Positions 3,801 through 33,293 of a DNA stretch of 64,000 nt are shown here, one piece after another; the stretch's first letter is position 1, and the number at the start of each line of letters is the position of its first letter. Source of the DNA: Octopus vulgaris (lineage: Eukaryota). The position numbers and the translations under genes were made by a program. The DNA is taken from positions 6,696,001-6,760,000 of the forward strand of contig OX597818.1 in the NCBI GenBank assembly GCA_951406725.2, written 5' to 3'. Under the pieces are notes generated by a model that was given only the letters and a program-made list of their open reading frames with translations, was not told the origin of the DNA and made no database searches.

Positions 3801-3895
3801 TCTCTGCTGATGAGACACGCCAGTTGTAAGCAAATTTAATTTAATTTAATTAATTTGTTTACCTAAGTTTGTCGAAACTTTGCATAGTCCAGAGA
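3801..3895 (+). ncRNA. type I hammerhead ribozyme
   Basis: Stem I TCTCTG/CAGAGA; core CTGATGA (3807-3813); stem II GACA/TGTC with inner pairing GTAAGCAAATT/AATTTGTTTAC; GAAA (3874-3877); near-palindromic stem III ACTTTGCATAGT; GUC cleavage triplet ending 3889. Confidence 0.8.
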
Positions 3896-4114
3896 TGAAA
3901 AAGGGTAAATGTTTTTATTTCTCTTCCAATTTCAGAATTACAACTATTTAGCAGTTTGAGTTTGGCTGCTCTTTCTAGTGAGTCGAATGGCCTATCAGGG
4001 CCATTCCTATATTGTTGAGTGTATATTATATAGTCTTTGACTATTTTTTCTTTCTCACTAGACCGCTGGTAGCGGAGAATTTTTTCTAGAATTTTTTTGC
4101 TACCCTGATATTTA

Positions 4115-4194
<80 letters not shown>

Positions 4195-4454
4195 CTATGC
4201 TCATATAGGTAATTACATACTCGAAAACAGACGATCAACGTATGGAATTTAATTAGTTCTGAGATATCTGTCCATTTACGTGAATGTGTAATGTAAATCT
4301 AACATGCATAATGCACTTATCGATAAGCATGATGCATTTAATTTACATACGTAATGTGTATGCGCGTGTATGTGTATCTGTTTGTGCCTGTGAGGGACTG
4401 TGTGTCTCTGCGTGGGTACGTGAGCTGGCGCGCGTGTGTATATGCGTGTATTTG

Positions 4455-4620
4455 GTTCAAGATGATGCAAAAAACAAGACAGAGGGAGGTGAAGTAACAA
4501 TAAACAAGGTGTATTATTCCCCGCTTACGACGCCTTATACGTTTCGAGCCTAGGCCCATCTACGGAAACAGAAGAGAGGGGGAAAAAGGTAGGAAGAAAA
4601 AACGTGCATGGATTTACTGT
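4455..4620 (-). repeat. short repeat with degenerate hammerhead-like motif (related to 26624-26825)
   Basis: Minus strand CCGTAGAT-GGGC-CTAG-GCTC-GAAACGT; flank resembles 26760-26805. Confidence 0.45.
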
Positions 4621-4632
4621 TGCACACACAAA

Positions 4633-4724
<92 letters not shown>

Positions 4725-5860
4725 CTAGTGCAATTAGCGATCCAGTAGAGCATTTAGCATCATTTTAAAATAATTTATATATTTCTATATCTTTATAACT
4801 TTATGCACACGATAAGTGAATCAAGCATTACTCAGTCTAACAGAAACCCCAAAAGCGTTTTGCGGTTAAACTAAAAATCGTATTGAAATAAAATGTTATC
4901 TTCGATTTATATTACACATTCTCGTGAGGGGTCAGATTTCCTGGAACTAATTATATTCGATTTGTTGATTATCTATTTAAGAGTATTTAATTACGCATAT
5001 GGGCATAGACAAAAAGTTTTAATGTTAAAACAATGTCGTTTGTTATGTGGCAAGCAGACTTTATGAATTCCAGAAATTCCTGTCCAATATTCAGAGATTT
5101 ATCGCTAATTTGTATAAACTTAATCCTCATTACGCACACTCTTCGCATGTAACAAGTTCTCGAAACTGGTTTAGTTTGTTTCGACAGGGATAAAAATATA
5201 AACCAACCTGTATATAGTAAAACAGTTTTTACAATGAAATTAAGAGTTAATTTCAAATTTCAAAAGAATTTAATTTTAATCCCACTCCTTAAATGGATGT
5301 CCGAGGCCATCTTCCCCCTATGCCTCCTTTGTGTACCCCACTTATGCTACAGACCCTAAGAACTATATTGAAGAACTAAATATCATTAACCTCTATTTAC
5401 GAAAAAGTTATATAAATTTGTCAATATGTATTATCAAACAAAATTTCAAGTTTATATATCAGCGACTACACAACTTGTTTGCGTAGATTCTACATTTCCA
5501 AAAACATGCTAAATGAATAGTGAGTCATATGTTAAAGGTAAGGCAATTATAAATAATTCGATAGTCAGATGACCAAAAATATCGATTGCTTCCGTTAACA
5601 ATATGGATTGCATAAAAATAGAATATCGATCCAATGAACTATTTTCCATATAACTAATATATTTTTATATCAATTAAGCCTAATACTTAATAATACAATG
5701 CGATTGCGAGATATATATTATATTTCGATATTGGTTATCGTCCAGCTGATCAATAAATATAAGCAGACTTTCTGCTCGAATTCCTGGTTTCTTTTCATAT
5801 ATTTGCGCCAGGCTATATGAATAAGATGTATTCAAGACTAGAAAATCTTACATATCTATA

Positions 5861-5909
<49 letters not shown>

Positions 5910-6811
5910 TCTCATTCTCTTTCTCTGTGTGTTTATATATGTATATATATATATCAATAAATAGGTAGGTAGATAGATAGAAACATAGATAGATAGATTG
6001 ATATATACATACATACATACATATTCACGCCATGCTACAAGACTTTAGAAAATGTCCTACCGATGTTTTTAATAAACTCCGGAGAAATTAGAATTTTCTG
6101 AATAATGTAGGTTTGTTTAGAAAACAATAAGCATTAATTTTCATCCAGCCTTTCACCTTCTTGAAAAACTGTCAGGATATATTTTAGTGCTGTAAAATCT
6201 GTATAATTTCATTATATTGTACACGTGTTGATTCGCCATTGCTGAACACATTGTATGCGATCTTTTTCTCGTGACCCCGTTTCATTTTGCCTACATATCA
6301 GGCAAATTAAATTTATTTTATTTAGAATTATAAATTATATTTGGCTTCAAATGCTAAATTCCATTATTCTTCTTTGAATGATATAAGATATAGACAGACA
6401 CACCCACCCCACACACATACACACAGACATGCATATGTGTGTTTAATGCATATATGGATGTGTGCCTAATTGTTGCTATTCACTCTACAAAAACCATCGC
6501 AATCACACACACACATACACACACACAGTTATAATAATAATTGAATTCAACATCTTGAAGCTAAAGTTTGGAAATAACAGAACATAATTCATGATTTGTG
6601 CGCTTGCAGGTTTTTTTAACTATAAACATTTAAGTTTGTGTAGAAATGGATGCAAAATGAAACAGTGAAAGCTATTAGACGCGAACAAGATCGTGTTCAA
6701 ATAGTTTCGAATCAGCTTTAGGCCACCTTTTCTGAAATAATGACTTAATCAAGCTTCCTTCTCCGACTGTATCGACCTGTGCTAATATAACGCAATATAA
6801 ATAGATAAATA

Positions 6812-6839
6812 ACAATGATAATAATAATAATAATAATAA

Positions 6840-6870
<31 letters not shown>

Positions 6871-6971
6871 AAGAAGAAGAAGAAGAAGAAGAAGAAGAAG
6901 AAGAAGAAGAAGAACAACAACAACAACAACAACAACAACAATAATAATGATAGTGAAAATAATAATAATAA
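6812..6971. repeat. compound (AAT)n(AAG)n(AAC)n(AAT)n microsatellite
   Basis: Direct reading. Confidence 0.95.
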
Positions 6972-9900
6972 TGGGGACGTTTAACAGAAAGACACTTGGG
7001 GCATTAAACAAAAGACACCGGGAACGTTTGACATGTGAGAGCGATAAAGTGTGCTCCGAAATCTATCCACAAACATCGGAAATAAAGACATCGCATGGTT
7101 CCAAAAAATAGCTGACAAAGGATTGGACTATATCCGAATAAGTAATACTCATTGAAATTTATTACTATTTTCCAACATCCCCACCTCTCGCACAGCACAT
7201 GTAAACATGCTTGATACATTACGATCCATCAACACCAGACTTTCTCTGGCCCGAAACACCATGTACAAATAAATTAAATACCAGTATTATTCAACCCAAG
7301 AATAACAATCGGGAAGTGCGTACTTTAAACTTGTTACATAAAAAGTACGAAAAACTACACGTGCAAAATATTGTGACAACAGAAATGAACGAACCGTTAC
7401 CCTACGAAAATGACGACCGTCAAAATAAAGGGCCGGATGTTATTCTTCATGTCCCGCAAATAAAAGCAAAAAGCCATAAACGTGAGGAATATATTTCAAT
7501 CCTACACGCTTACTTTACAGCAGTGCTCTACCCACAGAACGAAAACACCTCAACATATACTTCTAAAATCTGGAAGAAAAATAACCAACATAAACACTTC
7601 GATACAACAATGAACCCTAATAAAATAGCTAACATACGAAGATATATTCACAACGCAAAAAAATATCAGAAATAGAAATAGAACATTTAAAAGGAAAAAT
7701 ACATCAGGAAAATGTAGATAGAAGCCACACAACAATGCCAAATAATAAAAGCACTGAGATAGTAAAACACGAAGACAAAAAACAAAAATTCCAGACCGTA
7801 GGGATGCAAAATAATGTACAAAAAGCATCAAACCAAAATATTACAGACAAACATACGAATGAGAAAGAAAGCGAAACAGATCTAAAACCTGGAAACAACG
7901 AAGAGGAACCTAATGATTAAGATACTATAAAAACTAGAATAATCAAAGAACTGAAAACCACAGATATCAGAATGGACCACCGACTATACGTCCCAAAAAT
8001 CAAAATAGACAACAAAACAACATCAATGATAATAGCATAAACCTGGCCGTCAGGGAACTTGTAGTCACTGAAACAAATAGCAATATCACTGAGCTAAATG
8101 ACATAATATATGCAGCAGCCACTGCCGCAACAAAAGAAGCTGGATACTCCCTCAAACCCATCCAAACAGGAGTACCACCATAAATACCCCCCCAATACAA
8201 AAAATTAGAAAAGATCTATCGATTCTTAACGAAATTAATACACAATCAACGCTACTAAGCAACAAAAAGAAAATAAAAATACTGTGCAAATACAACATCA
8301 CAGAGAAAATTTACCTGAGATAAAAGAAAAGCTAAAGCAAGATATCCTTGCCAAAGCACAAAAGATGCGCCGGTATGAGAAGCGGCAACGTTTCTTTGAG
8401 CAAAACAAATAGTTCAACTCCAACCCCAAAAAGTTCTACCAAGAACTTGGGAAAAATAAAATAGACATCACTGCAGCACCAACGGCAGAAGAATTCTGGA
8501 AAGAAATGTGGTCGGTGAATGAACAACCAGAGAAAAGGACTATTAAAACAACAAACTTAGCACCTGAGCAACTCTGGACCCCATAACAACTGAAGAGGTC
8601 ACCCAGGCACTGCAAAGACTTAGCAACTGGAAGGGACCTGGGTACGACAAGATCCCCAAATTCTGGTTGACATATCTGACAGAAATGCAGTAAAAGCTGG
8701 CTAGAAATTTAACGACATACTGGCAGAGCCAGAGACAGTGCCTGAATGGCTCAAGAAAGGGGAAACTATCTTAACTCCCAAACCAATGAAACGGCAAAAC
8801 CACAAATCTACAGACCTATTACCTGTCTCCCTACAGTGTACAAAGCCTTTACTGCAGTAATATCGCAAAGATTGAACAAGCACCTCGACGAAAACAACCT
8901 GTTTCCAAAAGAGCAGAAAGGTTGCTGCAAGGGCTCATATGACTGTAAATATCAACTAATGATCAATAAGGCGATAACTGAAGACAGCCGCAGAAAGAAG
9001 AAAGGCTTCAGTATGGCCTGGATCGACTATTGAAAGGCGTTTGATAGCATTCCCCACACGTGGATCCTCGAAACACTAGCCATTAACAAGGTAGCATCAA
9101 CAATTATAAATAACATAGGACACTATGAATAAATGGCAAACAGTGCTACAGCTCCAAACAAAAGAGGGATTCGTGAAAACCAAAACCATCCCCAGTAGAA
9201 GAGGAATATTCCATGGTGACACGCCCTCTCCACTCCTTTTCCGCTTGGCACTGTCACCTCTATCTGATATGCTAAATGCGGATACAAATGTTATGGCAAT
9301 ACAATCAGCCAACTTTTATATATGGATAACCTAAAACTATACGCTACAAATGACAAACAGCTGGAAACACTACTACAGACATTTCATGGATTTACCAAAG
9401 AAATAGATATGAAATTTGGATTAGAAAAATGCGCCAAAGTAACCATGAAAAGAGGAAAACTAGTTAAGAGTAGCAACATCACACTAGATAAAGCCAATGG
9501 AATAAGAGAATTAGACCAAAGCCAAACTTATAAATGTTTAGAAATCCATGAACTAGATAAGATACAACACACAAATGAAAGAGAAAATAAAGAAAGAATA
9601 CTATAGACGAGTGAGATCAATACTAAAAACAGAGCTCAATGCTAAAAACAAGATAATAGATATTAACACTTTAGCTGTCCCAGTTATAGGTTACAGTTAC
9701 AATATCCTTAACTGGACACTAAATGAACTAACCAAAATAGACAGGAAAACAAGAAAAATAATGACATACACTGTAAGCTATGACAACATTATGGAATAAC
9801 AAGAGAAAAAAGAGTGTATAGGCACACACCAGAAAAAGGTCACAGAAAACGAGAAAGCAACCATACTCTAAGATATGCCAATACACACAGATAGAGAAAT

Positions 9901-10297
9901 TAATGACAACAGGCCAGATAAAGTTGTCAGAGATCATGAAGAAAAAAAATGCTTTCTAATTGACATATCAATACCAGCAGATGACAACGTGTCTCTAAAA
10001 GAAATGGAGAATTTCAAAATACAAAGACTTGGAAATAGAAGTAACTCGAATGTGGAATCTAAAAACAGAAACAATTCTTATCATAGTAGGCGCATTAGGC
10101 ATGATAAAAAATATTCAGACAAATACATAACAAAAACACCAGGACTTACAAATACATATAACATACAGAAAATTGCACTACTATGCATGAAAAAATAGGG
10201 TATAGGCACACACCAGAAAAGGTCACAGAAAACGAGAAAGCAACGATACTCTGGGATATGCCAATACACACAGATAGGGAAATTAATGCTAACAGGC
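6972..10297 (+). mobile_element. R4/Dong-clade RLE non-LTR retrotransposon, degenerate (copy 1)
   Basis: RT motifs YRPITCLPTVYK, MAWIDY, GIFHGDTPSPLLF, MDNLKLYA, MKFGLEKCAK; RLE motif RPDKVVRDHEEKKCFLIDISIP; many stops and frameshifts; internal deletion near 9765; begins right after (TAA)n. Membership of 6972-7350 is inferred. Confidence 0.88.
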
Positions 10298-11555
10298 GTT
10301 TCTTCTCTTGGTCAACGCAGTGGTGGTAACATCGGTCAATAACTGCGGTTGTTCTTCGGTATGTATGCTCAATGGCTGATGTGACGTTGCATATTATTTC
10401 GGGGAATTTGCGTATGTGCTCATGTCATTGGTGCTGTAAATGTTATATGATTTTTATGATGACCAACGTAGGTATATATTTCAGTGATCGTCGAAGGGTA
10501 AGGCTGTGGAAGCACATTGTACTTGTATGTTCCTGATGGTGTTAAGAATTATGTTGCTTATCCGATTTTAGCACGTTTTATTTAATAGTTTGATCACCTC
10601 CCTATTGGTTGCGGACGCGGCCTGACCCAGGCGTAGAAATAGAAGAGTATTGTAGGTAGTTCGCTTGAAGCATTGTGTATTGTTTTTAAACAATAATAAC
10701 AAATAGTAATAATGTGATTTGAATAGCACAGCAATGTACTATAATAACAAAAATGGACTATAATAACTAGTGTAATTTAATCATCCTTAGTCTGATATTA
10801 TATTTCGGAATATAAAAATTCCTCCTTAAGATATCCCTAGGGATTGATCGATCACTGTTACAATCGATTTTCCAACGGATTTTTTCGCCTTTCTTCCTTC
10901 TTCCTTTGTTTTCCTTTTTCTTTCCCCGGAAGTGTCTCTGCACTGGTTGCACGAAGCCCCTTCCGGAATTCCTCGTGAGAAGTGCGTGAGGGCGGCCATA
11001 TCTCAGGCTCGTGTGTGCTGGCACATTCGTAGCTCTTCTTCTAAGTGTTCTAAGTTATGTATTATACGTGCAGTTTCCACTTTTTTTCCTTCTCCTTCCC
11101 TTAAGATGGGAAAAGGGAAGAAGGAAAGAAAAGAGGAAACGTAGAAGCAGCGCTACGGATGTGCCAAATCACACGAGCGTGAGACATGGCCGCCCTCACG
11201 CACTTCTTACGAGGAATTCCGGCAGGATCTTCTTGAGACCAGTGCAGTAACATTTCAGGGGAAAGAAAAAGTAAAAAGGGCACAAAGGAAGAAGGAAGAA
11301 AGGGAAAAATGAAAAAAAAAAACGTCGGAAAATCGATTGTAGCAGTGATCGATCAATCCCTAGGGATATCTGAAGAAGGAATTTTTATATTTCGAAATAC
11401 TATATCAGACTATGGATGATTAAATTACAGCAGTTATTATAGCCCATTGTTGTTATTATAATGCATCGTTGTGCCATTCAAAACAGATTATTACTATTTA
11501 TTATCATTGTTTACAAACAATACAGAATGCTTCAAGCGAACTACAATAATTTCCT
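10298..11555. mobile_element. large inverted-repeat element, probably Penelope-like pLTRs in head-to-head orientation
   Basis: Arms ~10655-11100 and ~11108-11548 are diverged reverse complements; each carries a CTGAAGA-like/hairpin/GAAA motif; right arm ends at (TA)n. Confidence 0.6.
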
Positions 11556-11563
11556 ATATATAT

Positions 11564-11637
<74 letters not shown>

Positions 11638-11640
<3 letters not shown>

Positions 11641-12060
11641 TGTAGGAAGAAATGGAGCTGAACGAAGATTTAACAAAATTCCTTTTTATTATTTTCTACA
11701 TATGTTTGGCTCCTCGTGAGCGTTTGGCGAAAAGCTTGCTGTGCATTTTGTTGGAGAATTAAGTTCCTGGATTTTCCTGAAGAGAAGGCTGCAAAATGGA
11801 CTCCTTATTCAATCCGAATTAGGGACTTTGCAGCTTTTGAAACATATGTAGAAAATAATAAAAAGGAATTTTGTTAAATCTTCGTTCAGCTCCATTTCTT
11901 CCTACACTAAATATATAAAACTTCAAATTTCCGCACTAAGGCACGGATTTTAGGCCCCATGGTCGTAACCTCAACCGTGCTTTTTCTGTTGTGATTTTTG
12001 CTACCCAGGTGTCGGTTATCATTTGAATAATCCGTAATAAGATAATTCCTTTATCTACTT

Positions 12061-12062
<2 letters not shown>
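11638..12062 (+). mobile_element. short hammerhead-containing element with 5' inverted segment, inserted in (TA)n
   Basis: 11638-11708 is a perfect reverse complement of 11840-11910; (TA)n on both sides; both ends recur at 39339-39434. Confidence 0.75.
11771..11856 (+). ncRNA. type I hammerhead ribozyme
   Basis: Stem I ATTTTC/GAAAAT; CTGAAGA (11777-11783); 12 bp stem II GAAGGCTGCAAA/TTTGCAGCTTTT; GAAA (11839-11842); palindromic stem III ACATATGT; GUA cleavage triplet ending 11850. Confidence 0.8.
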
Positions 12063-12132
<70 letters not shown>

Positions 12133-12714: not shown

Positions 12715-12761
<47 letters not shown>

Positions 12762-12900: not shown

Positions 12901-12982
<82 letters not shown>

Positions 12983-15941: not shown

Positions 15942-18900
15942 CTAGCAGAATTGCCCGGCGTTGCTCGGGGCTGAATTGCTTGAAAGTACTGTTAATGATT
16001 GCACTGAATTATGATGATTATTCAGGCAAATATTGATATAAGTTTACGGCGAATGAATCTATTTGTAAGTGTATAGAAAGCCGTGTAAAGGTGTTCCTAC
16101 CCCCTCGTAGAATGGTGTAAGAATTGAATGCGAGGTTGCCTTGAAAAGAGCCATGTTATTGTTCTCATAATTGTAAGAATTTGATAGTCGTGGAAGGCGA
16201 TGTAAAACGGTGAATAGGGTCTCTTCGTTTTGCACGAACGGCAGCGGATGTGCTGTTACAAAACTTGATGCTGTGTTAAAAGAGAGTGGATTTCATATGT
16301 AGGCAAGAGAGGAATGAAGCATGGGTAAGTAAATATGTGTAATTTATAAAATATAGAACAATAGCATCAACTCACCATATGTCAGACCGGCAAGACTGTA
16401 GTGGTGCTGATTAGGTGAATCACAATACAGTGGTGGAGATGTTTTCCTTGATGGGCGTTTTGATTAAATTTGTTGTTGTATAAAATGATCTGTTGATTAG
16501 TTTCGAAAGTGTATGTTGCGATCCTGTTGTCGCTCATGTAAACTTTAACAGTGAGAGTGTAGATGTAGGGGGGTAGATGTGTCATGTACGTTGGATATAG
16601 AAGATGAGGCTGGTGGTTTGATGATGAATGGATAGAAATAGAGTTGAGCGAAGGACAGGTGTTGGTTAAGTGTGAATTAATGTTATGAAACGCCTAGAAA
16701 TGTAAATGCCGTCATAAAAGAGAGTCGTATGTAAGTGAAATACTAACGTGTTTGAAAATGATGAAACGTAGTAATCCTATAAAACCTCCTTGTACACAAT
16801 GTTTTTTGTTTTTCGTTGTGGAAGGAATGCGAAAGCATCACTGTTGCTGCCGACACGCGAGCAGCCAACATAAAGCTGACCATGAGAGAAACATGGCTCT
16901 CCCAAATGTATTCCTGCCACAGACAGTGTTTGACCCTGCGCTTTGTTAATTGACATTGCGAAACATGGCCTTACTGGGAACTGGGACCTCCGAAATATGA
17001 AAGGTAGGTCTGCTCCTGATGGGAAAAGATGCATCCTAGGTATGAGCACAACGTTGCCTCGACCGCACCCTGTGATAATGGTGGCCTCAATCAGATTGGG
17101 AGATAAGGACTTAACGATCAAACGTGTGCCATTACATTGTTTTGGGGGAACCAAATTTCTAATGAGCATTATAGGGGCACCAACTTTAAGTTTGAGAATG
17201 TGTGGTGGTAGTCCGGGGGCTCAAAGGAATTGAGTACCTCTATTGGATAATTGATGACGTCGTCTGGGTCAGGAGTTGTATCGATAGACTTATATACATA
17301 GACATCCCCAGGAATGAGTTTTAGCATTTCATCATTAATATGGTGAATAGTTTTATTCCTCGGGGCCAGAATAGCCCTTTGGCCAATCCAATCCATATTC
17401 TGATAATTAGCTTGTAGATCTGGGAATACTGCATCTCTGAGATCAGAAGGCGTGTTAACAATGGTACGAATGGAATTGATGGCAATATTACCATTTTCAT
17501 CCCCTGGTATTTTGCCTTCGCCAAGTGCAAGGAGGGTGTGAGAAAATGCTGCTGATGTGATATCACGTCGCATATGAGCACGCATATTGGTGTGAAGTTT
17601 GAGAGTCTTCACCAGTGGCCACAATGTGGATGACTTAAGACACGCACTTACAGCATCAGCTCTAGTCCCTTTGGGAATAACGGGAAGTATTTGTCGGAAG
17701 TCCCCTGAAAGAAGAAGTGTTATGCCTCCAATGGGAGCTAAAGAGTGTTTGATGTCTCTGAGAGATCTATCTAGTGCCTCAAGAGCACCTCTGTGGGCCA
17801 TCGTGCATTCATCCCAAACGATAAGCTTGCATCGTCTGAAGACTTCTGGCTGATCGGAGCTATTACTGATGTTGCAAATTGGTGTCTCAGTCTTCGCTAA
17901 GTCAAGTGGGAATTTGAAAGTAGAGTGAGCTGTCCTGCCGCTTGGCAACAAAGTAGCCGCAATTCCAGATGATTCCACAGCTAGGGCAATGCCTTGTGTT
18001 CGCCTAATATCAGCCAATATTAATTTGTTGACAAAAGTTTTCCCAGTGCCCCCAGGAATGTCCAGGAAAAAAATGTCCCCAGCTTTGGCCCGGACTGAAT
18101 TAACAACGGAGTTGTAAGCGAACTTCTGTTCTGGAATGAGCTTTGGCTCACTGTCGGCTATGTACTCGGCAAGCTCGTCAACATTAAATCATGTCTCACG
18201 CAGCAAATGTGAAGACAGAGTGTTTGTGCCTTCCCGGTTTGTTGAAGGTAGGCCATAGACCGGCAAGGCACTACCTCCCATATCGAGTACAGTATCTTCG
18301 ATTTCAAGCAGCGCCCTGTTGTAAATGAGGTCAGTGTACCCGACCTCCATTGATGGATGTAGCGATTGAGCGTGACGCAGGAAATCTTCAGACATATCAT
18401 CTTTGTAGGTAAGCCATAAAGAGGCGGGATTAGCCAAGTCACACCATAGTAATAGAATAGCGAAAAGCGATCTGATTTTTTTAGGAGATTTTAATGAAAC
18501 ACCTTGTGCCATAGTGGCGCCCCATTGTGAATCATCCTCCAAAAGTCGACGCCGAAAACAGGCTTCACGGAAAGTATCACATAATACACCATCAACAGTT
18601 CTGATGTCTTGAAAACTTTGTGGGCAGGTGAAAACAGTCATGTTGGTTTGGAGGTACAGTGTAGACTCTTCCTAGACAACTGTTAAACTTGATACCAGGA
18701 TGTCCTTCAACATCCTGACCCGACTTTCTACGCACCCAATTGTTGTTTGACCACACGTAGTAGGACGGGACCTGAGGGTATAAAAGTGTTTTAGCAAATG
18801 TGTCAAGTTGGCAAAGCCTAAAGAAACCGGTCAAAGTTGTTTGTTTTGGATTTGCCGCCAAATCAGCTGCAGTCTGTTCAGTATAGTAAGTTCGTTGGCC

Positions 18901-21696
18901 ATTTTCCAAATGAACCGCTAGTTGTATGATGGCGGGGTGCCTTTGGTGAAGTGGAAACCCGAATATCCGCCAAAAAGCTTCACCACTGCTTATGTACCGA
19001 CCTGCCATGTACTGTGACACCTCGTCCATGCTATTGTCCTTTTGAAGGCCAAACATTGGCAGCGTCAGAACCCTTGTTAACATATTTACATATATACTTT
19101 ATAGACTTGACTGAATGACAGAACTCCACATTTATGTGAGCGTTAAAAGTTTTCATCAGAAATGGACAGTACGGCACTACCCACCTATTATCCACTTGAT
19201 GACCCCGTAACGTTATAGTGAATCCACCATTGTCAGGGTGCCTTCTTCTGTACAGTGGGTATCCGTCGCGGCCGGTCTGGGTCTCGTCCACGAACCTCTT
19301 TGGGTACCGTTTAGTGCACACGTGGTCTTTGTGGCATGAGGAGAACTTTTAAAAACCAGGACCGCACGGACCGTGTACCATGTGCGCCTTCACAATGTCG
19401 TACAGCTGCCGGTCAACAGTTGGGTCCGGAATTTCTGCTGCAATGAGATCATCAAGAACTGTTGGGTCTATTTTGTTGACCAACCAAAGCAAAATGTGCG
19501 CGTGTGGCAACCCTCTTTTCTGCCACTCAACAGTATACATGTGGCAGTTAACAGGCCCAAAAACCTGGCCTTTTTTTATTAAAAGAATGAGCTTAGCCAG
19601 TTTCTATCTGAAAATCCTTGCAATAATATCATGGCGATGACAGTACTGCTGCCCTGGGAGAAGTTCTCGCGTTACCTCAACCCACTTTGGGTTACATGTA
19701 AAGGTAATGAATAAATCGGGTCGCCCATAATGCCGAACGCAAGTCATAGCGTCTTGTGTTCGCTCGTGCATGTACCGTGGGCCCCCTGTATAGGTTGAGG
19801 GGAGAATGCACATTTTGCCGATATTGCGGGCGTCAGTATCATTCCTGATGCCATCACGCAAATGGATGTAGGAGTCTGAGCGCAGCTGCTTCTGATTCAA
19901 TTTGATGAAGCCCAGTCTCTTGGACTCCATCTTTGCAGCCATGTCAACTGCAAATTGGTGAAACAGTTCCCGTGATCTGTGCAGGGGGTTGAAATCATTA
20001 TGCCTTGTCATGAAGCGGTATGAGTAAAAAGCCATACATGAAACAGTTTTAGATGTCGCAGCCGAGGGCTCGTTTGGTTTGTGGTGTGGAATGCCGAAAT
20101 GGTACCCGTCTTCTCCATACGGAAAAAGAAGGGGATACTGCAGGGCGTCATATGACCGATGCGTCTCATTAATACGCTGAAGACCACTGTCGCTGCTTTG
20201 AAGAACTATGTCCCGCTGCTTGTGCTGTTCATCATGGAGAACTATGGCCACTTCATTGCACGAAGGAGCGTTATATCGCCGCGCGTGCTCCCCAGAAGGC
20301 CTTTTGTCAGCATCGATGACAATGGTGAATGTTGGTGAAGGGGCTGTTTCCAAGGCGTATTTGAAACTGCGAATATAGCTGTTGTGGTCATGAAGCATGT
20401 TTTGCAGAGAGAGCAGCACGTCCCTGTCGAAATTGTCAGCGTCAGTGTTTGCAGGTTGTGGAATTACGTTGAAACGCAAATCAAGTTGCCTATTGTAATT
20501 TGTAATGACATAAATTTGAAGGAACGAAGGTTTGCAATTTTGTAGTGGCTGGAGTGACCCAATAAGGTGGTACACCTGGCCCTGGACCTTGAAAGTAGGC
20601 ATCCAACCAGTTTCTCTGACAACGTTAGCCCCGAAAGAAGTCATCTGAAATGCACAATTGTATATCCTGATGAGTTGAAGGAATTTTGATGACCTTGAGG
20701 TGGAACCAGTAAGTAATTCCTTCAAAGGGTCTGGCAGCTCCCGAAGAGGGGGCAAGCTGACCTTACCGTTTAAACAGCACATCGCAGGCGGTTCCCCAGC
20801 CCACTTTTTAGCATTGCAGAATTGGCAATTGAAGCACATTTCCCCAATATTTATGTCAGCGTGCATCGAGTAATTGAAGTTGGGCTCATACTTGAAAGCA
20901 CGTAGATGCCAGTAAGGTCTGTTTGGACTCGTCAGACCGCGGCGTCGACTGTTCCGCTGGAATGTAGAACGTTGCTGGTCTGAGTTGTGGGAATGTGTCG
21001 AAAATGTTGAAGCAGCAGTAGCCGCAGCGTTTGTAGCCAGTCGAGTGGCCCTTTGTTGTGGGTCCTCTGAAGCCCTTTGTGCAGCAACAGCAGAAGCGTT
21101 TATGGCGCTGCGCTTCGCCTTTTTCGCCGCTGCTGCTGCAGTATGGCGGCCGAGGCGACTTCTCTTTTTCGGTGGCATTTTATGTGAAAAAGAAAGGGTG
21201 AAAGTTACTTAAAGATAGAAATTGTAATGTGAATGAAATGTGGAAAAATGTAAACCCTGGAAGGAAAAGAAATAAATATTAGCAGCTGAAAGAAATTTTT
21301 TATGCAAGTATAGCGACAGAGTGTGTAAAATGTATAGACATTTGAGTTAAAAGCCAGAAAAGAAAGTTAGATTTGCAAGTAAGGAAGTAGTTTACGTACA
21401 TGTTCGAAATGTGAAGTGTTTTAGTTGTTTAATCAAATATTTGCGTAAAGTGTATAGAAACGTAAATTGAAAAAGAAAATGAATTGAAATTTTAAAGAAA
21501 GGAATTTGTTTACATACATGTGTGAAATGGCAAATGTTTGTGCAGTTGTCCGAAATGGAACCAGGGTAAATGTGTGGAACTGATGTATTATAATGAATAG
21601 TCCTTCTTGAACTGAAAACCAGTGGTGTAGCATATAAGAGCATAAGGGATCTTCTTCTAGCCAAAATGGATGACCAGTCTGAATGGCTCACCCCTG

Positions 21697-25245: not shown

Positions 25246-25310
25246 GATATCGAGTGTAAATTCCGCTGAGGTTGCTATTGCTCTTTATTTCGAGGTCAAT
25301 AAAATAATTA

Positions 25311-26022
25311 CGAGGTGATAAAAATATATATTTACCTAAATTTTAACATGATCTCCTTCAAAATAGTCATCTTGCGCCGCAATACACCGGTCCCAGCATA
25401 CCAGCCTCTTTTGGAATGTAGCCTAAAAGTAGTTTTCCGCAATTCAGTTGAGGACCTTCTACGATTTGCTGGATCTCGACAACGGTGTTAAAACGGCAAC
25501 GTTTGTGCTGACTTTTCGCCGAAAGGAAACCAATTTCCCGTGCTCCACACATCTGGTCGCTTTCGCCGAACGTCGTCCCTCAAATGCTACAAAATGTTTG
25601 ACGGTCTAGCCCTGGGGACGAATTCACTATGCACAATAACACATTTCCGATGGTGACTTTCATGGCAGGTCTTCCAGGTCGCTCATTGTCATTTGAAGAG
25701 CTCGTGCCACCGGAAACATTGCGTATGATCCATTGCCACGTCACCGTAAGCTTGCTGCAACATGCTGAATGTCTTTGTAGCAGACTTCCCAGGTTTAATG
25801 CTAAACTTCACGGTGGCTCATTGTTCCAACTTTCTATCCATGGCAAAATTGCAGATTACAGCATACACGTGATCACATAAACAAATTTCACTACTTGCGA
25901 AGTAAACACAGCATATACTGCCTCACGAAGGTCACCGCTTGCTCTCAATGCGTACGCAACTATGTGCTGCCATCTATTGGCGCGCTGCAGAACTAGTGCG
26001 GGAAGTTTTTAATACCACCTCA
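25311..26022 (-). mobile_element. internally deleted mariner element
   Basis: Ends TA|CGAGGTG and CACCTCA|TA; minus strand encodes N-terminal VKFSIKPGKSATKTFSMLQQAYGD..ERPGRP and C-terminal CIAAQDDYFEGDH. Confidence 0.8.
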
Positions 26023-26099
26023 TACCGACTGTTCACGAAGATCAATGTAATCTGCTTACCCCACTCCGAGATTGCTGACTTTGTACCATAATTTGAAAG

Positions 26100-26177
<78 letters not shown>

Positions 26178-26335
26178 CGAGATTGCAGAATCGTTAGCAC
26201 ACCGGACATAATGTTTAGCGGCATTGCGTCCGACTTTCAACTCGAGTTCAAATGCCACATAGGTCGTTTAGGCCTTTTATGATTTCATTTCAGATTGATG
26301 AAATAAGTAACAATCAGTACTGGAATCGATCTACT
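26178..26335 (+). mobile_element. degenerate SINE family B copy
   Basis: GCAGAATCGTTAGCACACCGGAC..GAGTTCAAATG..AAATAAGTA. Confidence 0.6.
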
Positions 26336-26460
26336 AGCATCATTAACAGCGACATGCTAAGCAAAGAGGCTTAGAAGATCACCAACCTCAGCAAATTTTG
26401 CATTATCACCACGACCATCTTCAGCACAATAAAAGTAAATTGTACGGTAGTAACAACAAT

Positions 26461-27038
26461 GGCGCACGAGTGGCTGTGTGTTAAGTAGCTTGCTTACGAA
26501 CCATATGGTTCCAAGTTCAGTCCCACTGCGTGGCACATTTGGCAAGTGTCTTCTACTATAGCCTCGGGCTGACCAAATCCTTGTGAGTGGATTTGGTAGA
26601 CGGAAACTAAAAGAAGCCCGTCGTTCGGCATGATTGATCTTTAGCCACTACACACATTTTTTTCTCTCCTTGTTTCTCTCCTTGTTTTTTCTATGTCCCT
26701 TCTGTAGAAGATCGTAGACTCGAAACGTAAAAGCCTTTTTCTGTTCCTGAGTGTTATACTAATATATCTGTTTGTTTTGTACACCACCTGTCTTCGTCTT
26801 TTGGTCTTTTTCGTAAACTCTCCCTATATATATATATATATATATGTATAAAAAACATATATATAAAAATAATGTGTGTGTGTTTGTGTCTGTGTAACTT
26901 AGCAGACCGGCAGAAGAACCGATAGAATAATACTACGCTTACAAAGAATAAGACCTGGAGTCGATTTGCTCGACTAAAGGCGATGCTCCAGCATGGGAAC
27001 TGTCAAATGACTGAAACAAGTAAAAGAGTATAAGAGTA
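26461..27038 (+). mobile_element. tRNA-derived SINE (family A) with internal insertion
   Basis: Head GGCGCACGAGTGGCTGTGTGTTAAG (A box), GTTCAGTCCC (B box); tail GACTGAAACAAGTAAAAGAGT; colinear with 41440-41831 except for a ~200 bp insert at 26624-26825. Confidence 0.85.
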
Positions 27039-30000
27039 ACACAATCAAGAGTAGAAACGATACAAAATAGTTTCTATTACCAAGATCGCAATTGCTTTCG
27101 ATGGCATACCACGAAAAAACAAGTATAAACATTTAAAAGAGCTAGAAAAACAGGTTAACCGATTCGAAAAGTGAAACGTTACACAGATTATACCAAAACA
27201 CCTTTAGACCTAACACAGGAAAAGAGTACAGTATAGACGCTTGTCGACGATATGACCAATCTTCAGTATATTTGAAAAGCGGAAGAACGTCCCTGGAAGA
27301 CGATGGGCGATCTGGCTGACCTGCTACGATCCTCATTCCCAGAAATGTGGTATTGTGATCGGGAAATGGCAAGACATTTGTTTTGTGGCATTTGCCAAAA
27401 AAATCGGATATATTTGAATTGTTTTCCACCAGGAAAAGATAATCCAGAAGAAGTATGCATTCCATAAAATAAATTTACAAGGATAACGATTTTCCTGGGA
27501 TGGAGAGTAATATGAGTAAAAGTCTCAAGCACTCAACCCGAATTCGACTTCAGATGGGTGTAGAAATATGTGGTTTGGAAGACACCAGCATGCAATAAAA
27601 AGAAAACCCTGAAAAGAAAATTGGATCAGAATAAGATTAAGGTTCTAGTTAATTAGGACTCTGAAAGAGTAACAAAATTGACGTTCATATAGACATCCCA
27701 GGGGAGCAGGGACTGCAAGTGGTTGTGGAAGTCAGTGACTACAAGAAGTTTGTGGAAGTCAGTATGACGTTTTAAGATTGAACCCAACATTTGGTCCATC
27801 CGTTAAACATCCGCATATTTTCTGTCCTAGAGAATATTTTCTGTCCTGTGTTGAGCTTTAAGACACACCTGCTCATTTGTGATGCCGAAAAACGTGATAC
27901 CTGAGATATATCTAGTAGTCTGATCTCATTGTTCATAGTAATTCCCTTAACTCTACATAATAGTTTGTGTTCAGTTAGTACAGTCAATATTTGTGTAGTT
28001 CTTGCAACGTTTTCATATCTCGATACTTTATCATTATTAATGCTCCATCCTATCCTTCAGTATTTGAACTGTTGCACTAGTTCTCGTTCTTGACCGTGTA
28101 CAGTGATTTCTGATATGATAGCAGCGTTGTAATTTGCCATGAGTTTCTTACTTTCGGTAAAAACATCCATACAATACGTAGTGAAGCACTATCTAGTGCT
28201 TACCTAAATTAATCACGTTATCTTCCTAAGGTGCCAATCCATGAATGTCACCAACAAATCTTAGAATTCATGCATTCCTCTCTCCGAATCTGAGATATTG
28301 GGATATTTATCATGATTTGTGCTGATCTATTGTAGAGAACTTAGCTTGAATGTAAAACTAATGTGATTACAGAATTTAGCAAGAATGTAAAAATATATGA
28401 CTATAGAAGTTTTAGATTTCCCTACAAGTCATAAATAGTCTAGAATATTTAAGGAAATAATCCTGCGCTAAGTGTAATGGTAATAATCAGAGTAACTGTC
28501 CTCTTAATGACCAAGACTCAGGCCTATAAGATTCGGGTGTAATACACATATCTTTTATAGCACTACTTATGAAACTTACAGTGGAGTTGCAGAAATCATC
28601 TTCAAGATAATATTTTATGTACACAATATAGCCTTAAAATACCTACAAAACACGTCATGAACCAGTTTTTCAAAGCAGGCATGTCAATTGAATTAAACTC
28701 TCAAAATTGAATGGTCCAATTTGAAAAAAGAAGCAAGTCAATAAAGGGATTGATTTTTCCGCCATTGTATTCCGTTCAATAAAATGTCGCTTTTTCTTAA
28801 TGGAAAAATATTTTACACTGTTTCAAGACAAGTTTTCAATTTTTAATATGAATTGTCGAACTATTGTAGGAATTCTTCGACGTTTCTGATTCCATGAAAG
28901 CTGGCACCGAACATATTAATATTTTGTCACCTCACACTACCATATGCTTTACTGTTTTACCACAACTTCGAATATGTGGAAAGTGCCATCATATTTTTGT
29001 AATTCTGAAGCTGAATTGTTTCCTTCCGACTGTCGCATACGACCTTTATATACTTTCATAAGTGTTTTGTTTCTTTTATATTTTCATTTTTACTATGGAT
29101 ATTTATCGATCAGGATATAAATTATACATGCGTTTATTATATTATTGTCTTTTTTTATTTTATTTTATTTCAGTATTCACTTTCTAAAAAAAAATGACGC
29201 TTCTACTTTGAATTAATTAGATTGATATTTTACGTATATTTTTTCCATTTCAGTAACTTCCTCACTTTTCCATCTTACATATTTCGAAATTGAATTACGT
29301 CCGTTTTATTTTGTTCAAACTTATTTTTCTATCTCGGTCCGTTTTATATATTTTCTTCTTTTCCCTCCTTCGCACCCTTCACTAGTAATATTTTCAGGTC
29401 TCAATCTACCTAATCTATTGCTTCTTTCTAATAGCTTGCACCTCCCCTGTGTGCTGTGTTACTTTGTCTACACAGATTTGATACAAAATGTCAGTTGCAA
29501 ATAATAATTACTCCTATTTCCTCTTCTTTTCTTTCATATTTTTAATGCCCATCTCTTCTAAATTCCTGTCGTTCTCTCTTTGACTTTTTCTTTCTTCCAT
29601 TATTGCCACTCCCTCTTCTCTACGGTTTGATAATTTATCATTTATTTATTTCACTTTCGTGATACTACTTCGTCCGTGTTTTAATTTCTATCTTTTAGGG
29701 CTTATTTTTCTTAAACACTTGTTTTCTAAAAGGGCTGTAATTATTATAAATATTTCCATGTAAGTAGGCGATTTAAATTTGAAATCATTTCGACACATTT
29801 TTAATGTTGGGTATTATGTTAGGGGATAATGCTCATCTAACGGTTTCTTATTTTCAAAAGAAATAACACTCAGTCTAACCATTAATAAATGAGTATCTGA
29901 TGAACTATTAAACAATTATAACTGCCCCATTTATAAGTATTTATAAACGATCTTAATGTGCAAAATACTCACGGTTGTCTAATGATTAGTTCCATGAACT

Positions 30001-30140
30001 TCTCTGTAAAAATTTGTGAAAGCTTTTCAACTTAAAGCTGTATTTTAATCTTTGATATTCTCGTGTTATTTTCTGTGCATTCATTCGTATTTCAGTGCTA
30101 TCTTCATTCATGTATCGGTATATGTACACACAAAAACATA

Positions 30141-30231
<91 letters not shown>

Positions 30232-30257
30232 ACACACATGAATACATATATATCAAT

Positions 30258-30627
30258 GCAGATGAAGCTGTGATGTAAGAAGTTTGTTTCCCAGTCATGA
30301 GTCCGAGGACAGTCCCACTGCAGAACAGTTCGAGCAAGTGTCCTCTACTATAGCCCCAGGCCGACCAGAAACTTATGAGAGGATATGGTGCGCGGAAACT
30401 GAAAGAAGTCCGTAGTATGTATATGTGTGTGAGATAGGAGAGAGAATGTGTGCTAGTTTGAGTGTTCAAGTGTGTGTCGGAATTTCCCCTTATATTTTCC
30501 CCCAGTATCGTTTGACAAACTATGTTGTTTACACCAACGTAAATTAGCGGTTCCATAAAATAGTCTGATATAATGAGTACCAGGCTTTAAATAATAAGTG
30601 TTAGGGTCGATCAGCTCGGCTAAAACT
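30258..30627 (+). mobile_element. SINE family A, degenerate copy
   Basis: CAGTCCCACTGC..GCAAGTGTCCTCTACTATAGCCCCAGGCCGACC..GGAAACTGAAAGAAG. Confidence 0.75.
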
Positions 30628-30728
30628 ATACGCGCGCACACGCGCACACACGTGTATGTGTGTTTGTGTATACATGTATATTCCACTACAATCTTCCATT
30701 CCATCACGCTCATTACTTTCGTCATGTA

Positions 30729-32208
30729 GAGTTGCGGCCAAAATGTTCAGAACGGCATTGTTTTCGTCAGAAAAGTAGATGATCAGAACGGTTGAAAAAT
30801 TAACAAAATAATCAAAAATGACAGAGAATACGGGAATTATTTAATATTTAGTGTGAAGCCCTTTAGCTTCAATCACACTCTGACATCTTCGACTGCATGA
30901 GGAAATTAAATTTTCAATTTCTTGCTGGGTGATCTTATTCCGTTCTTCCTGAAGGGCATTCCATAATTGCTCAGTTGTTTTAGGATTTCTGGCTTTCAAA
31001 CGTTCTCCTAGAATATTCCACACATTTTCAATAGGATTGAGATCTGGGCTTTGAGCTGGCCAATCCATAACAATAACCTTTTCAGCCTTGAGGAAGTTCA
31101 TGACCACCTTAGCCTTGTGACATGGGGCATTGTCCTGCATGAATATGGGTGGTCGCTTAATTGAATTTCTCAGCACAGGCAAGACATGATCTTTTACAAG
31201 TTGTTTATAAACTCCTGCATTTAACTTTCCAAGTAATCGCACCAAAGGGCCCACACCATCTCCAGATATCATTCCCCAAACCATGACACTACCTCCACCG
31301 AATTTAACACAAGTCTTAAGGCATTTAGGCAACAATTTTTCACCTACTTTTCTACGAACGTACCTTTTCCCATCTGAGCCAAATAGCATAAACTTAGATT
31401 CATCACTGAAATGCACCGTTTGCCATTTTTCTTGAGACCACAACACATGTTCGGTTGCAAAGGTAAGACGACACTTTTTATTCTTGGAGCTGATCAATGG
31501 CTTCACTGCAGGTGCTCTTGCTTGTAGGTCATGTTCAACTAAATGACGAGACACAGTTTTTCAAGATAAAGTTTTCTTCAATACAATGCTCATTTTCCGA
31601 GAAACAGCAGCAGCAGTTTTAATTCTGTCCTTTTTAACCAACTTTACCATAGCACGATCTTCTCTCTTGGTCGTTTTTCTTGGCCTCCCTGTAAACTATC
31701 TTGCTTCACACGAACCACAATCATCGTAGACCTTAAGAATACCGTGTACAACACTTTTTGGCTTGTTAACCATCTTTGCAATAGATCCAATACTTAAATT
31801 ATCCTTCCTTCGAAGCTTAATAATCTGCTGACGAATTGATAACGGAGTAAGTGGCATTCTTTAACAAGGTACACTGCAAATATTCTTACTAATGTTTAGT
31901 AAACGAACCGTCACGTAAACAAATTCAAAACATTAGAGTTCGCCGGTTAAATATACTATAACACGGAGTAAAAGCAACCGTTCTGATCATTTTGGCCGCC
32001 ATTGGTTTTGCAGTAAATCACTAAATCATCCATAACTTTTGTATTATCCTCTCAAATTACACCAAAATCTCAGGCAATAACAAATAATATCGTATTTATT
32101 GTCTGTGAAATAATTTATTGTCTATAAAATATAAAACAACTTTGATAAAAAATTATATCTACTTTTCTGACGAAAACAATGTCCTTCTGAACATTTTGGC
32201 CGCAACTG
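30729..32208 (-). mobile_element. Tc1-family (DD34E) transposon of IR-DR type
   Basis: ~52 bp terminal match GAGTTGCGGCCAAAATGTTCAGAA..AAAAGTAGAT / ATCTACTTTT..TTCTGAACATTTTGGCCGCAACTG; TA on both flanks; inner direct repeat at ~31981-32000. Confidence 0.93.
30841..31857 (-). pseudogene. Tc1 transposase, 339 codons including the terminal stop, two premature stops, no frameshift
   Basis: ATG at 31857 (MPLTPLSIRQQIIKL), GRPRKTT, FSDESKF, QDNAPCH, SPDLNPIE with 34 residues between D and E; in-frame TAG (~31696) and TGA (~31561). Confidence 0.93.
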
Positions 32209-32900
32209 TATGTAACATTTTCTTCAAATTGTATGCCACATGCTGCAAATTATTATTTCAATATATAAAGAGAGTGACTTGAAATTTTCTTCTGTAAGTA
32301 TTGTGTTGGTTTGCTCCAAATTCATTAGTGATCTTACTGACAACATTCTAGAATTGTAATAATCATTATGAACAACCAGCTTATGAACACCATTATCAAC
32401 ACCATTATGAACATCCGGCACATATATTTGTATTTTTTTAACAAGGCCTTGTTAATATATATATATTTATGTGTGTATGTGTGTGTGTATACTTTATTAA
32501 AAACCAGCAAAGATATCGCAAAAACTGTTATTAACAACAAATTCGTCATCTCCACTTACAGCCATTAATTTTCAATAAACATTAAATTTTAGTTTATGCC
32601 ACAGGAGCATAATATATGTCTTTCTGAATTCCCTTTAGCAGACTGAATGTTACGGTTTAGGAGTAGCTTGGGCGAGGGGTTTACAGGTTGATTTCAGATT
32701 CATTTATAAAGTATGAATAAAATGCACTCTATTACTTCCATATAAAAATTAACTCACCAATTACTATTTTAAATTTAGTCATTTACTCAATGTTCCAAAG
32801 CAACACGTAAGCAAAATGGTATGATTTGAACATATTAGGCCTTTACTTTTACCTTCATAGCTCTTCTCTTCTCTTTTTTCTTTTATGTATGCATTTTTCT

Positions 32901-33018
32901 TCACTCTGATGAAGCTCCATGTTCCAGATCGATTTATTACCAAATATGATAAATATTATTTTTCGAATACCAGTGGTATTACCATATAACATTGAGAAGA
33001 GAAACAGCTGTTTGGTGG
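32901..33018 (+). ncRNA. degenerate type I hammerhead-like motif
   Basis: CACT-CTGATGA (32906-32912), long loop, GAAA-CAGCTG-TT-TGGTGG; palindromic stem III ACAGCTGT; stems I and II imperfect. Confidence 0.5.
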
Positions 33019-33248
33019 GATACTTTCTAATAGTATTGTATCAAAAATGATAATTGATGTAAGTCAATTGTTGGTGATCAATATTTCTCCATTTTCTGTT
33101 TACCTTCAATTTAATTCCTGATAAACTCCTGTTTATGTATGTCATTACCTGCATATATATGTCCAGGGTTAACATAGGTAATTACACCGGAAGTATAACG
33201 GATACTTTTATCTCTTAGACTGGTTTTCCAACCTCTAATTCTACTAAT

Positions 33249-33293
<45 letters not shown>

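What the first reader, a model, noticed from the sequence alone, without database searches (positions are those of the whole stretch)
3801..33250. Recurrent layout of hammerhead ribozyme, short tail and (TA)n: candidate microsatellite-associated Penelope/retrozyme system
Seen: five plus-strand hammerhead or hammerhead-like motifs of unrelated primary sequence (3801, 11365, 11771, 26700, 32901) are each followed, about 90-230 bp later, by a (TA)n tract. Three have palindromic or near-palindromic stem III; two sit in inverted-repeat structures. Established: Penelope-like elements carry minimal type I hammerheads with palindromic stem III in their pLTRs and often have inverted 5' segments. Inference: several non-autonomous ribozyme-bearing families may insert at TA microsatellites, mobilised by a PLE such as the GIY-YIG remnant at 35430-36110.
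Basis: partly seen in the sequence, partly recalled or inferred. Interest (0 to 1): 0.75.

Follow-up and report, generated by a model that had tools for sequence, protein, structure and literature searches.

The report
Hammerhead-bearing ends of Penelope jumping genes
The five motifs are the tail ends of five unrelated, abundant repeat families that carry a predicted self-cutting RNA and end in TA repeats; four belong to Penelope-type jumping genes (a known arrangement) and one is a gene-less repeat that likely borrows such an enzyme, and their back-to-back copies suggest the RNA is copied from two fixed start points, one per side of the DNA break.

Summary
The layout is real, but it is not one new system. 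Each motif ends a separate high-copy family whose copies fit a type I hammerhead with palindromic stem III; three of the five window copies are decayed. B, C, D and E are 3' ends of their own protein-coding Penelope-like elements (C, E Hydra-type; D Neptune-type; E's link is weakest). Only A (470-nt circularly permuted unit) is non-autonomous. The remnant at 35526-36114 is a sixth, low-copy Hydra-type family, not their mobiliser. Hammerheads plus (TA)n targeting are published for Hydra and Neptune, and a hammerhead-free SINE-like repeat also ends in TA (30 of 70). More interesting: families A, C and E have two fixed 3' ends, and 46 of 48 two-armed insertions use one of each. In many, neither arm contains the other, which argues against the published fold-back model. 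In A and C, proximal arms stop at the predicted cut site (14 of 55, against 0 of 35 distal arms); E does not repeat this asymmetry. The scan noted the two-ended footprint before, on other retrozyme families in this genome. Cleavage is untested.

The parts
3730..4117 (+). Family A: 5'-truncated copy of a ~470-nt non-coding, circularly permuted (retrozyme-like) unit ending at its distal 3' site
   Evidence: 2629 first-look candidates; copies 89-97% identical
3801..3895 (+). A hammerhead, type I; predicted cut after 3889; palindromic stem III with one mismatch in this copy
4095..4105 (+). 11-nt tail motif TTTTGCTACCC shared by A, C and a divergent Hydra-type family; candidate recognition element
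4118..4191 (.). (TA)n at the distal end of A
10640..11075 (-). Family B inverted arm with a second, decayed hammerhead; not followed by TA
11132..11554 (+). Family B direct arm: 3' end of a Penelope-like element with C-terminal GIY-YIG (CCHH present; clade not resolved). Minimal hammerhead at 11365-11406, with U16.1 changed to C in this copy
11555..11637 (.). (TA)n shared by the end of B and the inverted arm of C
11638..11707 (-). Family C inverted arm ending at the proximal 3' site
11708..12062 (+). Family C direct arm ending at the distal 3' site; intact type I hammerhead 11771-11856, predicted cut after 11850, proximal site ~11910; 3' end of a young Hydra-type element
   Evidence: copies 97-99% identical
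12063..12126 (.). (TA)n at the distal end of C
26625..26824 (+). Family D: 3' end of a Neptune-type element; minimal hammerhead 26699-26733 with core CUGUNGA (U at position 6), stem II damaged in this copy; (TA)10 at 26825-26844
32727..33250 (+). Family E: 3' end of an older Hydra-type element with a long 3' UTR; hammerhead 32901-33020 with a ~90-nt stem II insert, decayed in this copy; proximal site ~33111; (TA)20 at 33251-33290
35526..36114 (-). Decayed linker and start of a Hydra-type GIY-YIG endonuclease (CxCX5C motif) between two TA tracts; separate low-copy family, not linked to A-E
39340..39433 (.). Miniature two-armed C-type insertion without hammerhead core: proximal-ended inverted arm plus distal-end stub between (TA)22 and (TA)13
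4465..4604 (-). Decayed D-like hammerhead end on the minus strand, with no adjacent downstream TA

Best explanation
The five units are the 3' ends of five unrelated high-copy repeat families, four continuous with their own Penelope-like RT/GIY-YIG genes and one (A) a gene-less 470-nt unit, each carrying a predicted type I hammerhead and likely inserted into (TA)n by target-primed reverse transcription. Shown: family membership, gene linkage (strong for B, C, D; one chained locus for E), palindromic stem III, two fixed 3' ends per family (about 145 nt apart in C, 85 in A, 165 in E, 45-65 in B), and the pairing of one proximal with one distal end in two-armed insertions. Inferred: the enzyme cuts both strands of a TA tract; one DNA end primes at the proximal RNA site and the other at the distal site; the two cDNAs join head to head. 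This gives the inverted 5' arm and the one-sided 'tail'. The 90-230 nt 'short tail' is simply the distance from the hammerhead to a start site. Inferred more weakly: the hammerhead cuts part of the template RNA in vivo, probably as a dimer through stem III, and A is copied in trans by a C-like Hydra enzyme that recognises a shared tail motif.
For: Gene linkage. C: endonuclease upstream on the same strand in 6 of 20 loci, RT plus endonuclease in L167 and L170. B: its end lies behind the endonuclease in 17 of 20 loci. D: endonuclease upstream in 8 of 20 loci, with RT motifs. E: L412 chained through overlapping UTR copies. Hydra marks DKT, no CCHH and CxxC..E..N..CxH in C; Neptune-type CX4CxxC plus CCHH in D. 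TA follows the main arm in 63 of 65 C and 40 of 48 A insertions, and lies at both outer ends in 35 of 44 and 17 of 25 insertions with an inverted piece. Mixed proximal/distal ends in searches not biased for the tail: C 25 of 26 (p 4e-7), A 10 of 11 (p 0.005), E 11 of 11 (read by eye). Neither arm contains the other in 15 of 36 C and 8 of 18 A mixed insertions; 8 and 4 of them do not overlap. 5' ends within -7..+3 of the predicted cut: proximal arms 14 of 55, distal arms 0 of 35 (p 6e-4), against 5 of 155 in the next four windows. In vitro, a Poseidon enzyme cuts and extends both strands and starts at two internal RNA sites (PMC11167929).
Against: No empty target site was seen, so TA made or lengthened during insertion is not excluded. 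8 of 36 C junctions are symmetric within 5 nt, and in 13 the proximal arm is contained in the distal arm; fold-back copying would also give these. E does not show the proximal-only stop: two distal arms end at +3, and six arms of both kinds end at +5 to +14. The -7..+3 window was chosen after seeing the data, contains the stem III palindrome centre, and includes one internal jump (L294). D showed no inverted arm in 20 loci. B ends often lack a clean TA tract. Only C's proximal site resembles (TA)n; A's sites do not. Monomer folding does not give the hammerhead as the lowest-energy fold for B-E. The anole hammerhead was dispensable for insertion in vitro. Clades rest on motifs, not on a tree.
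Confidence: 0.78

Rival explanations
1. Inverted arms arise by self-priming (fold-back) of one cDNA or antisense template, as proposed for rotifer Penelope elements; the second end is set by endonuclease resolution, not by a second priming.
For: Published model (PMC3846280). 8 of 36 C junctions are near-perfect palindromes, and 13 of 36 proximal arms are subsets of the distal arm.
Against: In 15 of 36 C and 8 of 18 A insertions neither arm can be a copy of the other; 12 do not overlap, and some distal arms stop at the proximal site itself (L197, L205, L373).
Confidence: 0.15
2. One reading: all five are non-autonomous ribozyme families moved in trans by one Penelope element such as the remnant at 35430-36110.
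For: A is non-autonomous: fixed-register repeat, two cores in tandem in 4 of 48 insertions, no contiguous gene. Most copies of B-E are short and gene-less.
Against: B, C, D and E join their own genes of at least three kinds. The remnant family is low-copy, 65-92% diverged among hits, and not followed by A-E ends.
Confidence: 0.05
3. The TA tract is not a target: it is part of the element, made by the telomerase-related RT at priming, or grown later from A/T-rich ends.
For: No empty site tested. A hammerhead-free repeat also ends in TA (30 of 70). C's proximal site is followed by a TA-like template run.
Against: TA also lies at 5' truncation points of single-armed copies (A 11 of 20, C 4 of 14) and at two different 3' sites per family. 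(TA)n targeting is reported for Hydra elements.
Confidence: 0.15
4. The motifs are chance look-alikes next to dense microsatellites.
For: 40 TA tracts in the window; 11-16% of positions have one within 250-400 nt; three window copies fail the strict descriptor.
Against: All five belong to families with 1600-4400 first-look candidates and conserved cores; 0 descriptor hits in shuffles against 13 in real sequence; 9 of 12 ends have TA against 4.7%.
Confidence: 0.01

Closest known systems
Hydra-clade Penelope-like elements (Craig et al. 2021, PMC8557442; section 11 and passages read, supplements not opened)
   Same: C, E and the window remnant: C-terminal GIY-YIG without CCHH, CxxC and CxH around E and N, DKT (C), CxCX5C linker (remnant; decayed in E), canonical hammerhead, (TA)n insertion.
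   Different: C has lost the linker cysteines inside an Asn-rich insert yet still sits in TA. Tails are 145-165 nt, not 30-40. E has a ~2-kb 3' UTR. No octopus Hydra family turned up in my searches.
Neptune-clade elements with minimal hammerheads (Cervera and de la Pena 2014, PMC4209133, parts 1-2 of 4 read; PMC8557442 passages)
   Same: D: CX4CxxC linker, CCHH, minimal type I hammerhead with extra base between 9 and 10.1 and palindromic 15.2-16.2; microsatellite bias.
   Different: Position 6 of the core is U (CUGUNGA in 11 of 13 unselected D-type copies, N7 varying). A6C is a described low-activity natural variant (PMC3088659, passages); the search for 'A6U' listed two papers on other RNAs (listing only).
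Metazoan non-LTR retrozymes (PMC7229834, passages; bioRxiv 10.64898/2026.07.22.740005, part 1 of 5 and passages)
   Same: A: non-coding, 35% GC, type I hammerhead, fixed-register repeats longer than one unit, dispersed copies.
   Different: 470 nt (described range 150-450); no array of two full units among 48 insertions; Penelope-type two-armed insertion into TA; circular RNA not shown.
Poseidon element of the green anole in vitro (Frangieh et al. 2024, PMC11167929, parts 1-2 of 4 read)
   Same: Both strands cut and extended, two internal RT start sites that define the tail, AT-rich targets.
   Different: That work does not assign one site to each end of a single insertion in the parts I read; it saw no reads at the hammerhead cut site, whereas genomic arms of A and C pile up there.
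LINE-1 twin priming (recalled; no paper read)
   Same: Two target ends prime on RNA and give a 5' inversion; 12 non-overlapping arm pairs look like it.
   Different: The second site is fixed, not chosen by chance homology, and most arm pairs overlap, which needs strand displacement or two RNAs.

Membership tests
EN+ Penelope-like elements (B, C, D, E) | RT followed by C-terminal GIY-YIG on the same strand upstream of the terminal repeat | tested here: met
   C; B (PF01541 E 8e-4, below cut-off); D; E thumb plus endonuclease in one locus. Pfam support is weak throughout; the call rests on motifs.
EN+ Penelope-like elements (B, C, D, E) | Type I hammerhead with palindromic stem III near the 3' end | tested here: met
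   full core pattern intact in C 18 of 20, D 12 of 20, E 6 of 20, B 2 of 18 loci.
EN+ Penelope-like elements (B, C, D, E) | 5' truncation, inverted 5' copy, tail at one end | tested here: met
   B, C, E. D shows truncation and tandem copies but no inversion in 20 loci.
EN+ Penelope-like elements (B, C, D, E) | RT groups with PLE clades in a phylogeny | not tested
   No reference set on hand; no tree built.
Hydra clade (C, E, remnant) | CCHH absent; CxxC and CxH flank the conserved E and N | tested here: met
   against the definition.
Hydra clade (C, E, remnant) | CxCX5C linker | tested here: inconclusive
   Met in the remnant and L248; one cysteine changed in the single E copy; absent in C.
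Hydra clade (C, E, remnant) | DKT in place of DKG; RWK motif | tested here: inconclusive
   DKT present in C (L170); the N-terminus bearing RWK was not recovered; E and remnant RTs not recovered.
Neptune clade (D) | CX2-5CxxC linker plus CCHH | tested here: met
   (L346, L347, L356, L359). Nematis shares these marks, so 'Neptune' also leans on recalled RT motifs.
Non-LTR retrozyme (A) | No coding capacity; type I hammerhead in each unit | tested here: met
   Longest ATG frame 69 codons; no contiguous PLE gene in 48 insertions.
Non-LTR retrozyme (A) | Tandem repeats with at least two consecutive hammerheads | tested here: met
   4 of 48 insertions, spacing 456-470 nt; never two full units.
Non-LTR retrozyme (A) | Accumulates as linear and circular monomer RNA; self-cleaves | not testable with these tools
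   No raw-read RNA run on hand.
Hammerhead ribozyme (function) | Self-cleavage at the NUH site | not testable with these tools
   Only indirect: 5' ends cluster at the predicted site.

The most novel reading that the evidence does not exclude
Penelope-type enzymes insert by fixed two-site priming: a dimeric enzyme primes both ends of one TA break at a proximal and a distal RNA site, often on two RNAs held together by the palindromic hammerhead helix, one of them already cut. This single mechanism would explain the tail, the head-to-head inversion and the role of the ribozyme across clades. A short tail motif would let retrozyme A hijack Hydra enzymes, and Neptune family D would run on an undescribed U6 core.
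Probability: 0.3. Interest if true: 0.75.

Novelty: new member of a known kind. Interest (0 to 1): 0.47.

Why it matters
The layout itself is known biology: it adds octopus-like members to Hydra, Neptune and retrozyme groups. The value lies in the footprints. Why Penelope elements have a one-sided tail, head-to-head inversions and a hammerhead is still open, and young family C (97-99% identical copies, near-complete gene recoverable) gives a clean genomic test and an obvious in vitro system. A paired with C gives a concrete retrozyme-mobiliser candidate with a motif to mutate.

Tried and rejected
Rfam scan: no hammerhead among the rows shown, only microsatellite-driven miRNA look-alikes below cut-off. 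Window repeat search was swamped by microsatellites. An RT gene beside an A copy (L101), and endonucleases beside L242, L221 and L238, first looked like A's partner; each is a separate insertion beyond a TA tract. C, E and the remnant were first labelled Nematis-like from memory, then moved to Hydra after reading the definition. Naiad and the rewired hammerheads of earlier scan notes were considered for B and E and rejected: the endonuclease is C-terminal and the folds are ordinary type I. General TA-like homology at RT start sites holds for C proximal only. A proximal-only stop at the cut site as a general rule is not repeated in E. Sequencing runs: no RNA holder listed; contigs gave no ends and no empty allele. 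Protein search gave 6 hits, the only named one mis-annotated as myb-like. Literature searches for twin priming or two-ended priming in Penelope elements, octopus hammerheads or retrozymes and A6U found no paper stating these points. Subscription journals, Repbase/Dfam and all supplements were not seen, so octopus families may already be catalogued there.
Full report
SETTING. The window lies at G000:C5:6696001-6760000 in a 2.8-Gb genome. It is 35% GC, with 40 TA tracts of six or more units. The only named protein hit for one element comes from Octopus sinensis, so an octopus-like host is inferred.

OBSERVATION. The five motifs are where stated, and a TA tract follows 223, 148, 207, 91 and 231 nt later. 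A strict type I descriptor finds only A (3807) and C (11777). Genome searches show each motif in its own large family: first-look candidates A 2629, B 1779, C 2662, D 4393, E 1628, of which 40 each were scored. The five 3' regions share no alignment beyond 15 nt. Aligned copies (20 per family, 18 for B) give type I folds, all with a palindromic stem III: A GAAA-CUAUGCAUAG-UC, B GAAA-UA-UU, C GAAA-CAUAUG-UA, D GAAA-CG-UA, E GAAA-CAGCUG-UU. B, D and E carry the extra base after A9 described for Penelope hammerheads. The full pattern is intact in 12 of 20 A, 2 of 18 B, 18 of 20 C, 12 of 20 D and 6 of 20 E loci; of the window copies only C matches it.

IS IT CHANCE? In 68 position-chosen 10-kb stretches, family profiles gave 15 hits. 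Three were dropped as cut off or truncated; 9 of the other 12 have (TA)5 within 40 nt, against 4.7% background. The descriptor gave 13 hits and none in shuffles, but seven were one 359-nt array, and only 2 of 5 loci had TA within 300 nt downstream. A hammerhead-free SINE-like repeat ends in TA at 30 of 70 ends. So the link is real, but it belongs to element ends in this genome, not to hammerheads as such.

WHAT EACH FAMILY IS. C: a GIY-YIG endonuclease lies upstream on the same strand in 6 of 20 loci, with RT in L167 and L170. It has DKT, lacks CCHH and has CxxC..E..N..CxH, the Hydra marks, but its linker cysteines are replaced by an Asn-rich insert. B: the hammerhead end follows a CCHH-type endonuclease in 17 of 20 loci, with RT motifs upstream; clade unresolved. 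D: RT, CX4CxxC linker and CCHH endonuclease lie upstream in 8 of 20 loci, Neptune-type. Its core reads CUGUNGA in 11 of 13 unselected D-type copies. A6C is known as a weak natural variant; I found no A6U hammerhead paper (listing only). E: a Hydra-type thumb and endonuclease in one locus (L412) chain to the hammerhead end through overlapping UTR copies; this is the weakest link. A: a ~470-nt unit whose longer copies run upstream into their own 3' part at one fixed register. Four of 48 insertions hold two cores 456-470 nt apart, none holds two full units, the longest ATG frame is 69 codons, and nearby PLE genes are separate insertions. It fits a non-LTR retrozyme except that RNA circles are untested. 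The remnant at 35526-36114 has a CxCX5C linker (Hydra-type) and 58 candidates; none of its 14 fetched relatives ends in A-E, though one has an unrelated D-type insertion ~750 nt further on.

INSERTION ANATOMY. Families A, B, C and E each have two fixed 3' ends, proximal and distal. TA follows the main arm in 63 of 65 unique C and 40 of 48 unique A insertions. Many insertions are head-to-head pairs, with TA at both outer ends in 35 of 44 (C) and 17 of 25 (A). In searches whose query excluded the tail, the pair has one proximal and one distal end in 25 of 26 C (p 4e-7 against free pairing), 10 of 11 A (p 0.005) and 11 of 11 E (by eye). One pair each in C, A and E with an end at neither site was left out, as were irregular cases. 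No distal-distal pair was seen. Across all sets, neither arm contains the other in 15 of 36 C and 8 of 18 A mixed pairs; 8 and 4 of these do not overlap. Such arms cannot be copies of one another, which the self-priming model for head-to-head repeats would require. Against this, 8 C junctions are symmetric and 13 proximal arms are subsets of the distal arm. D showed no inverted arms in 20 loci.

CUT-SITE FOOTPRINT. Among arms not forced across the hammerhead by the query, 14 of 55 proximal arms of A and C end within -7..+3 of the predicted cut, against 0 of 35 distal arms (p 6e-4) and 5 of 155 in the next four windows. Four end exactly at the site (L022, L040, L279, and L294, which is an internal jump). 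Caveats: the window was chosen after seeing the data and includes the palindrome centre, so a structural block would look similar. In E, eight arms of both kinds end at +3 to +14, two of them distal arms at +3, so the cluster recurs but the asymmetry does not.

A POSSIBLE MOBILISER FOR A. The 11-mer TTTTGCTACCC lies in the tails of A, C and a divergent Hydra-type family whose endonuclease is 45% identical to C's. Followed by TA within 38 nt, it occurs 639 times on the forward strand against 12 for the reversed control, with varied neighbouring sequence (reverse-strand counts are inflated by overlapping matches). The pairwise A-C match alone is weak (E 0.009 among ten comparisons), so this is a lead.

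MECHANISM. Shown: the structures above. Established: Hydra elements have canonical hammerheads and insert into (TA)n; a tail is often found at only one end; a Poseidon enzyme, predicted to be a dimer, cuts and extends both strands and starts at two internal RNA sites. Inferred: each end of one TA break primes at one of the two sites and the cDNAs join head to head; some templates are ribozyme-cut; stem III palindromes may pair two RNAs (duplex energies -15.9, -7.0 and -11.1 kcal/mol for A, C, E; negligible for B and D).

PRIOR NOTES OF THE SCAN. I proposed twin priming and counted the end pairing. One search then showed that other agents had noted the same two-ended footprint for 359- and 485-495-nt retrozyme families of this genome; these are unchecked AI notes, not independent support. 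Notes seen pointed me to PMC7229834 and to checking 5' ends at the cut site. What this window adds is the same rule in protein-coding Hydra-type families, the cut-site tally, the shared tail motif and the U6 core.

VERDICT. Real, mostly known biology (new members of known kinds), with mechanistic footprints worth a genome-wide and bench test. Papers seen: PMC8557442 (section 11, passages), PMC4209133 (parts 1-2 of 4), PMC11167929 (parts 1-2 of 4), PMC3846280, PMC7229834 and PMC3088659 (passages), bioRxiv 2026.07.22.740005 (part 1 of 5, passages). No supplements were read; family lists there could already include these octopus elements.

Noticed in passing
window 16780-21208 (-): Broken Helitron: Helitron_like_N (E 7e-39) and PIF1 helicase (E 4e-64) frames.
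   Followed up: partly
window 30844-31560 (-), 61352-62047 (-), 1357-2061 (-): Tc1/mariner transposase fragments; Pfam DDE_3 or Transposase_1 for the first two, the third by resemblance only.
   Followed up: partly
window 9268-10195 (+), 59872-60375 (+), 52536-54553: Related LINE-like RT fragments in several copies; type recalled from motifs, Pfam gave no RT hit.
   Followed up: no
window 26462-26622 and random sample: Very abundant SINE-like repeat (83 hits in 680 kb) whose 3' end is followed by TA in 30 of 70 cases without any hammerhead; its mobiliser is unknown.
   Followed up: partly
L107:2700-4800 (G000:C1:20002700-20004800): Array of a 359-nt unit with intact canonical hammerheads, five on one strand and two on the other, ending in TA; matches the retrozyme family of earlier scan notes.
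   Followed up: partly
L242 (G000:C10:28103678-28106860), minus strand beyond the A insertion: Another Hydra-type family: endonuclease 45% identical to C's, its own hammerhead, the same tail motif and a C-like distal end.
   Followed up: partly
L169:1007-2647 (-), L102:2372-3673: Asn-rich insert between RT thumb and endonuclease of family C, like the N-rich inserts of rotifer Penelope elements; a relative is annotated as myb-like protein.
   Followed up: no
L221 (G000:C2:6558107-6561307) and L104:7281-8142: Two-armed insertions of a further GIY-YIG family; in L104 its inverted endonuclease end is joined directly to a C arm, suggesting a template switch between families.
   Followed up: no
L130, L134, L163, L119 (random sample): Four further hammerhead families with palindromic stem III unrelated to A-E.
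   Followed up: no
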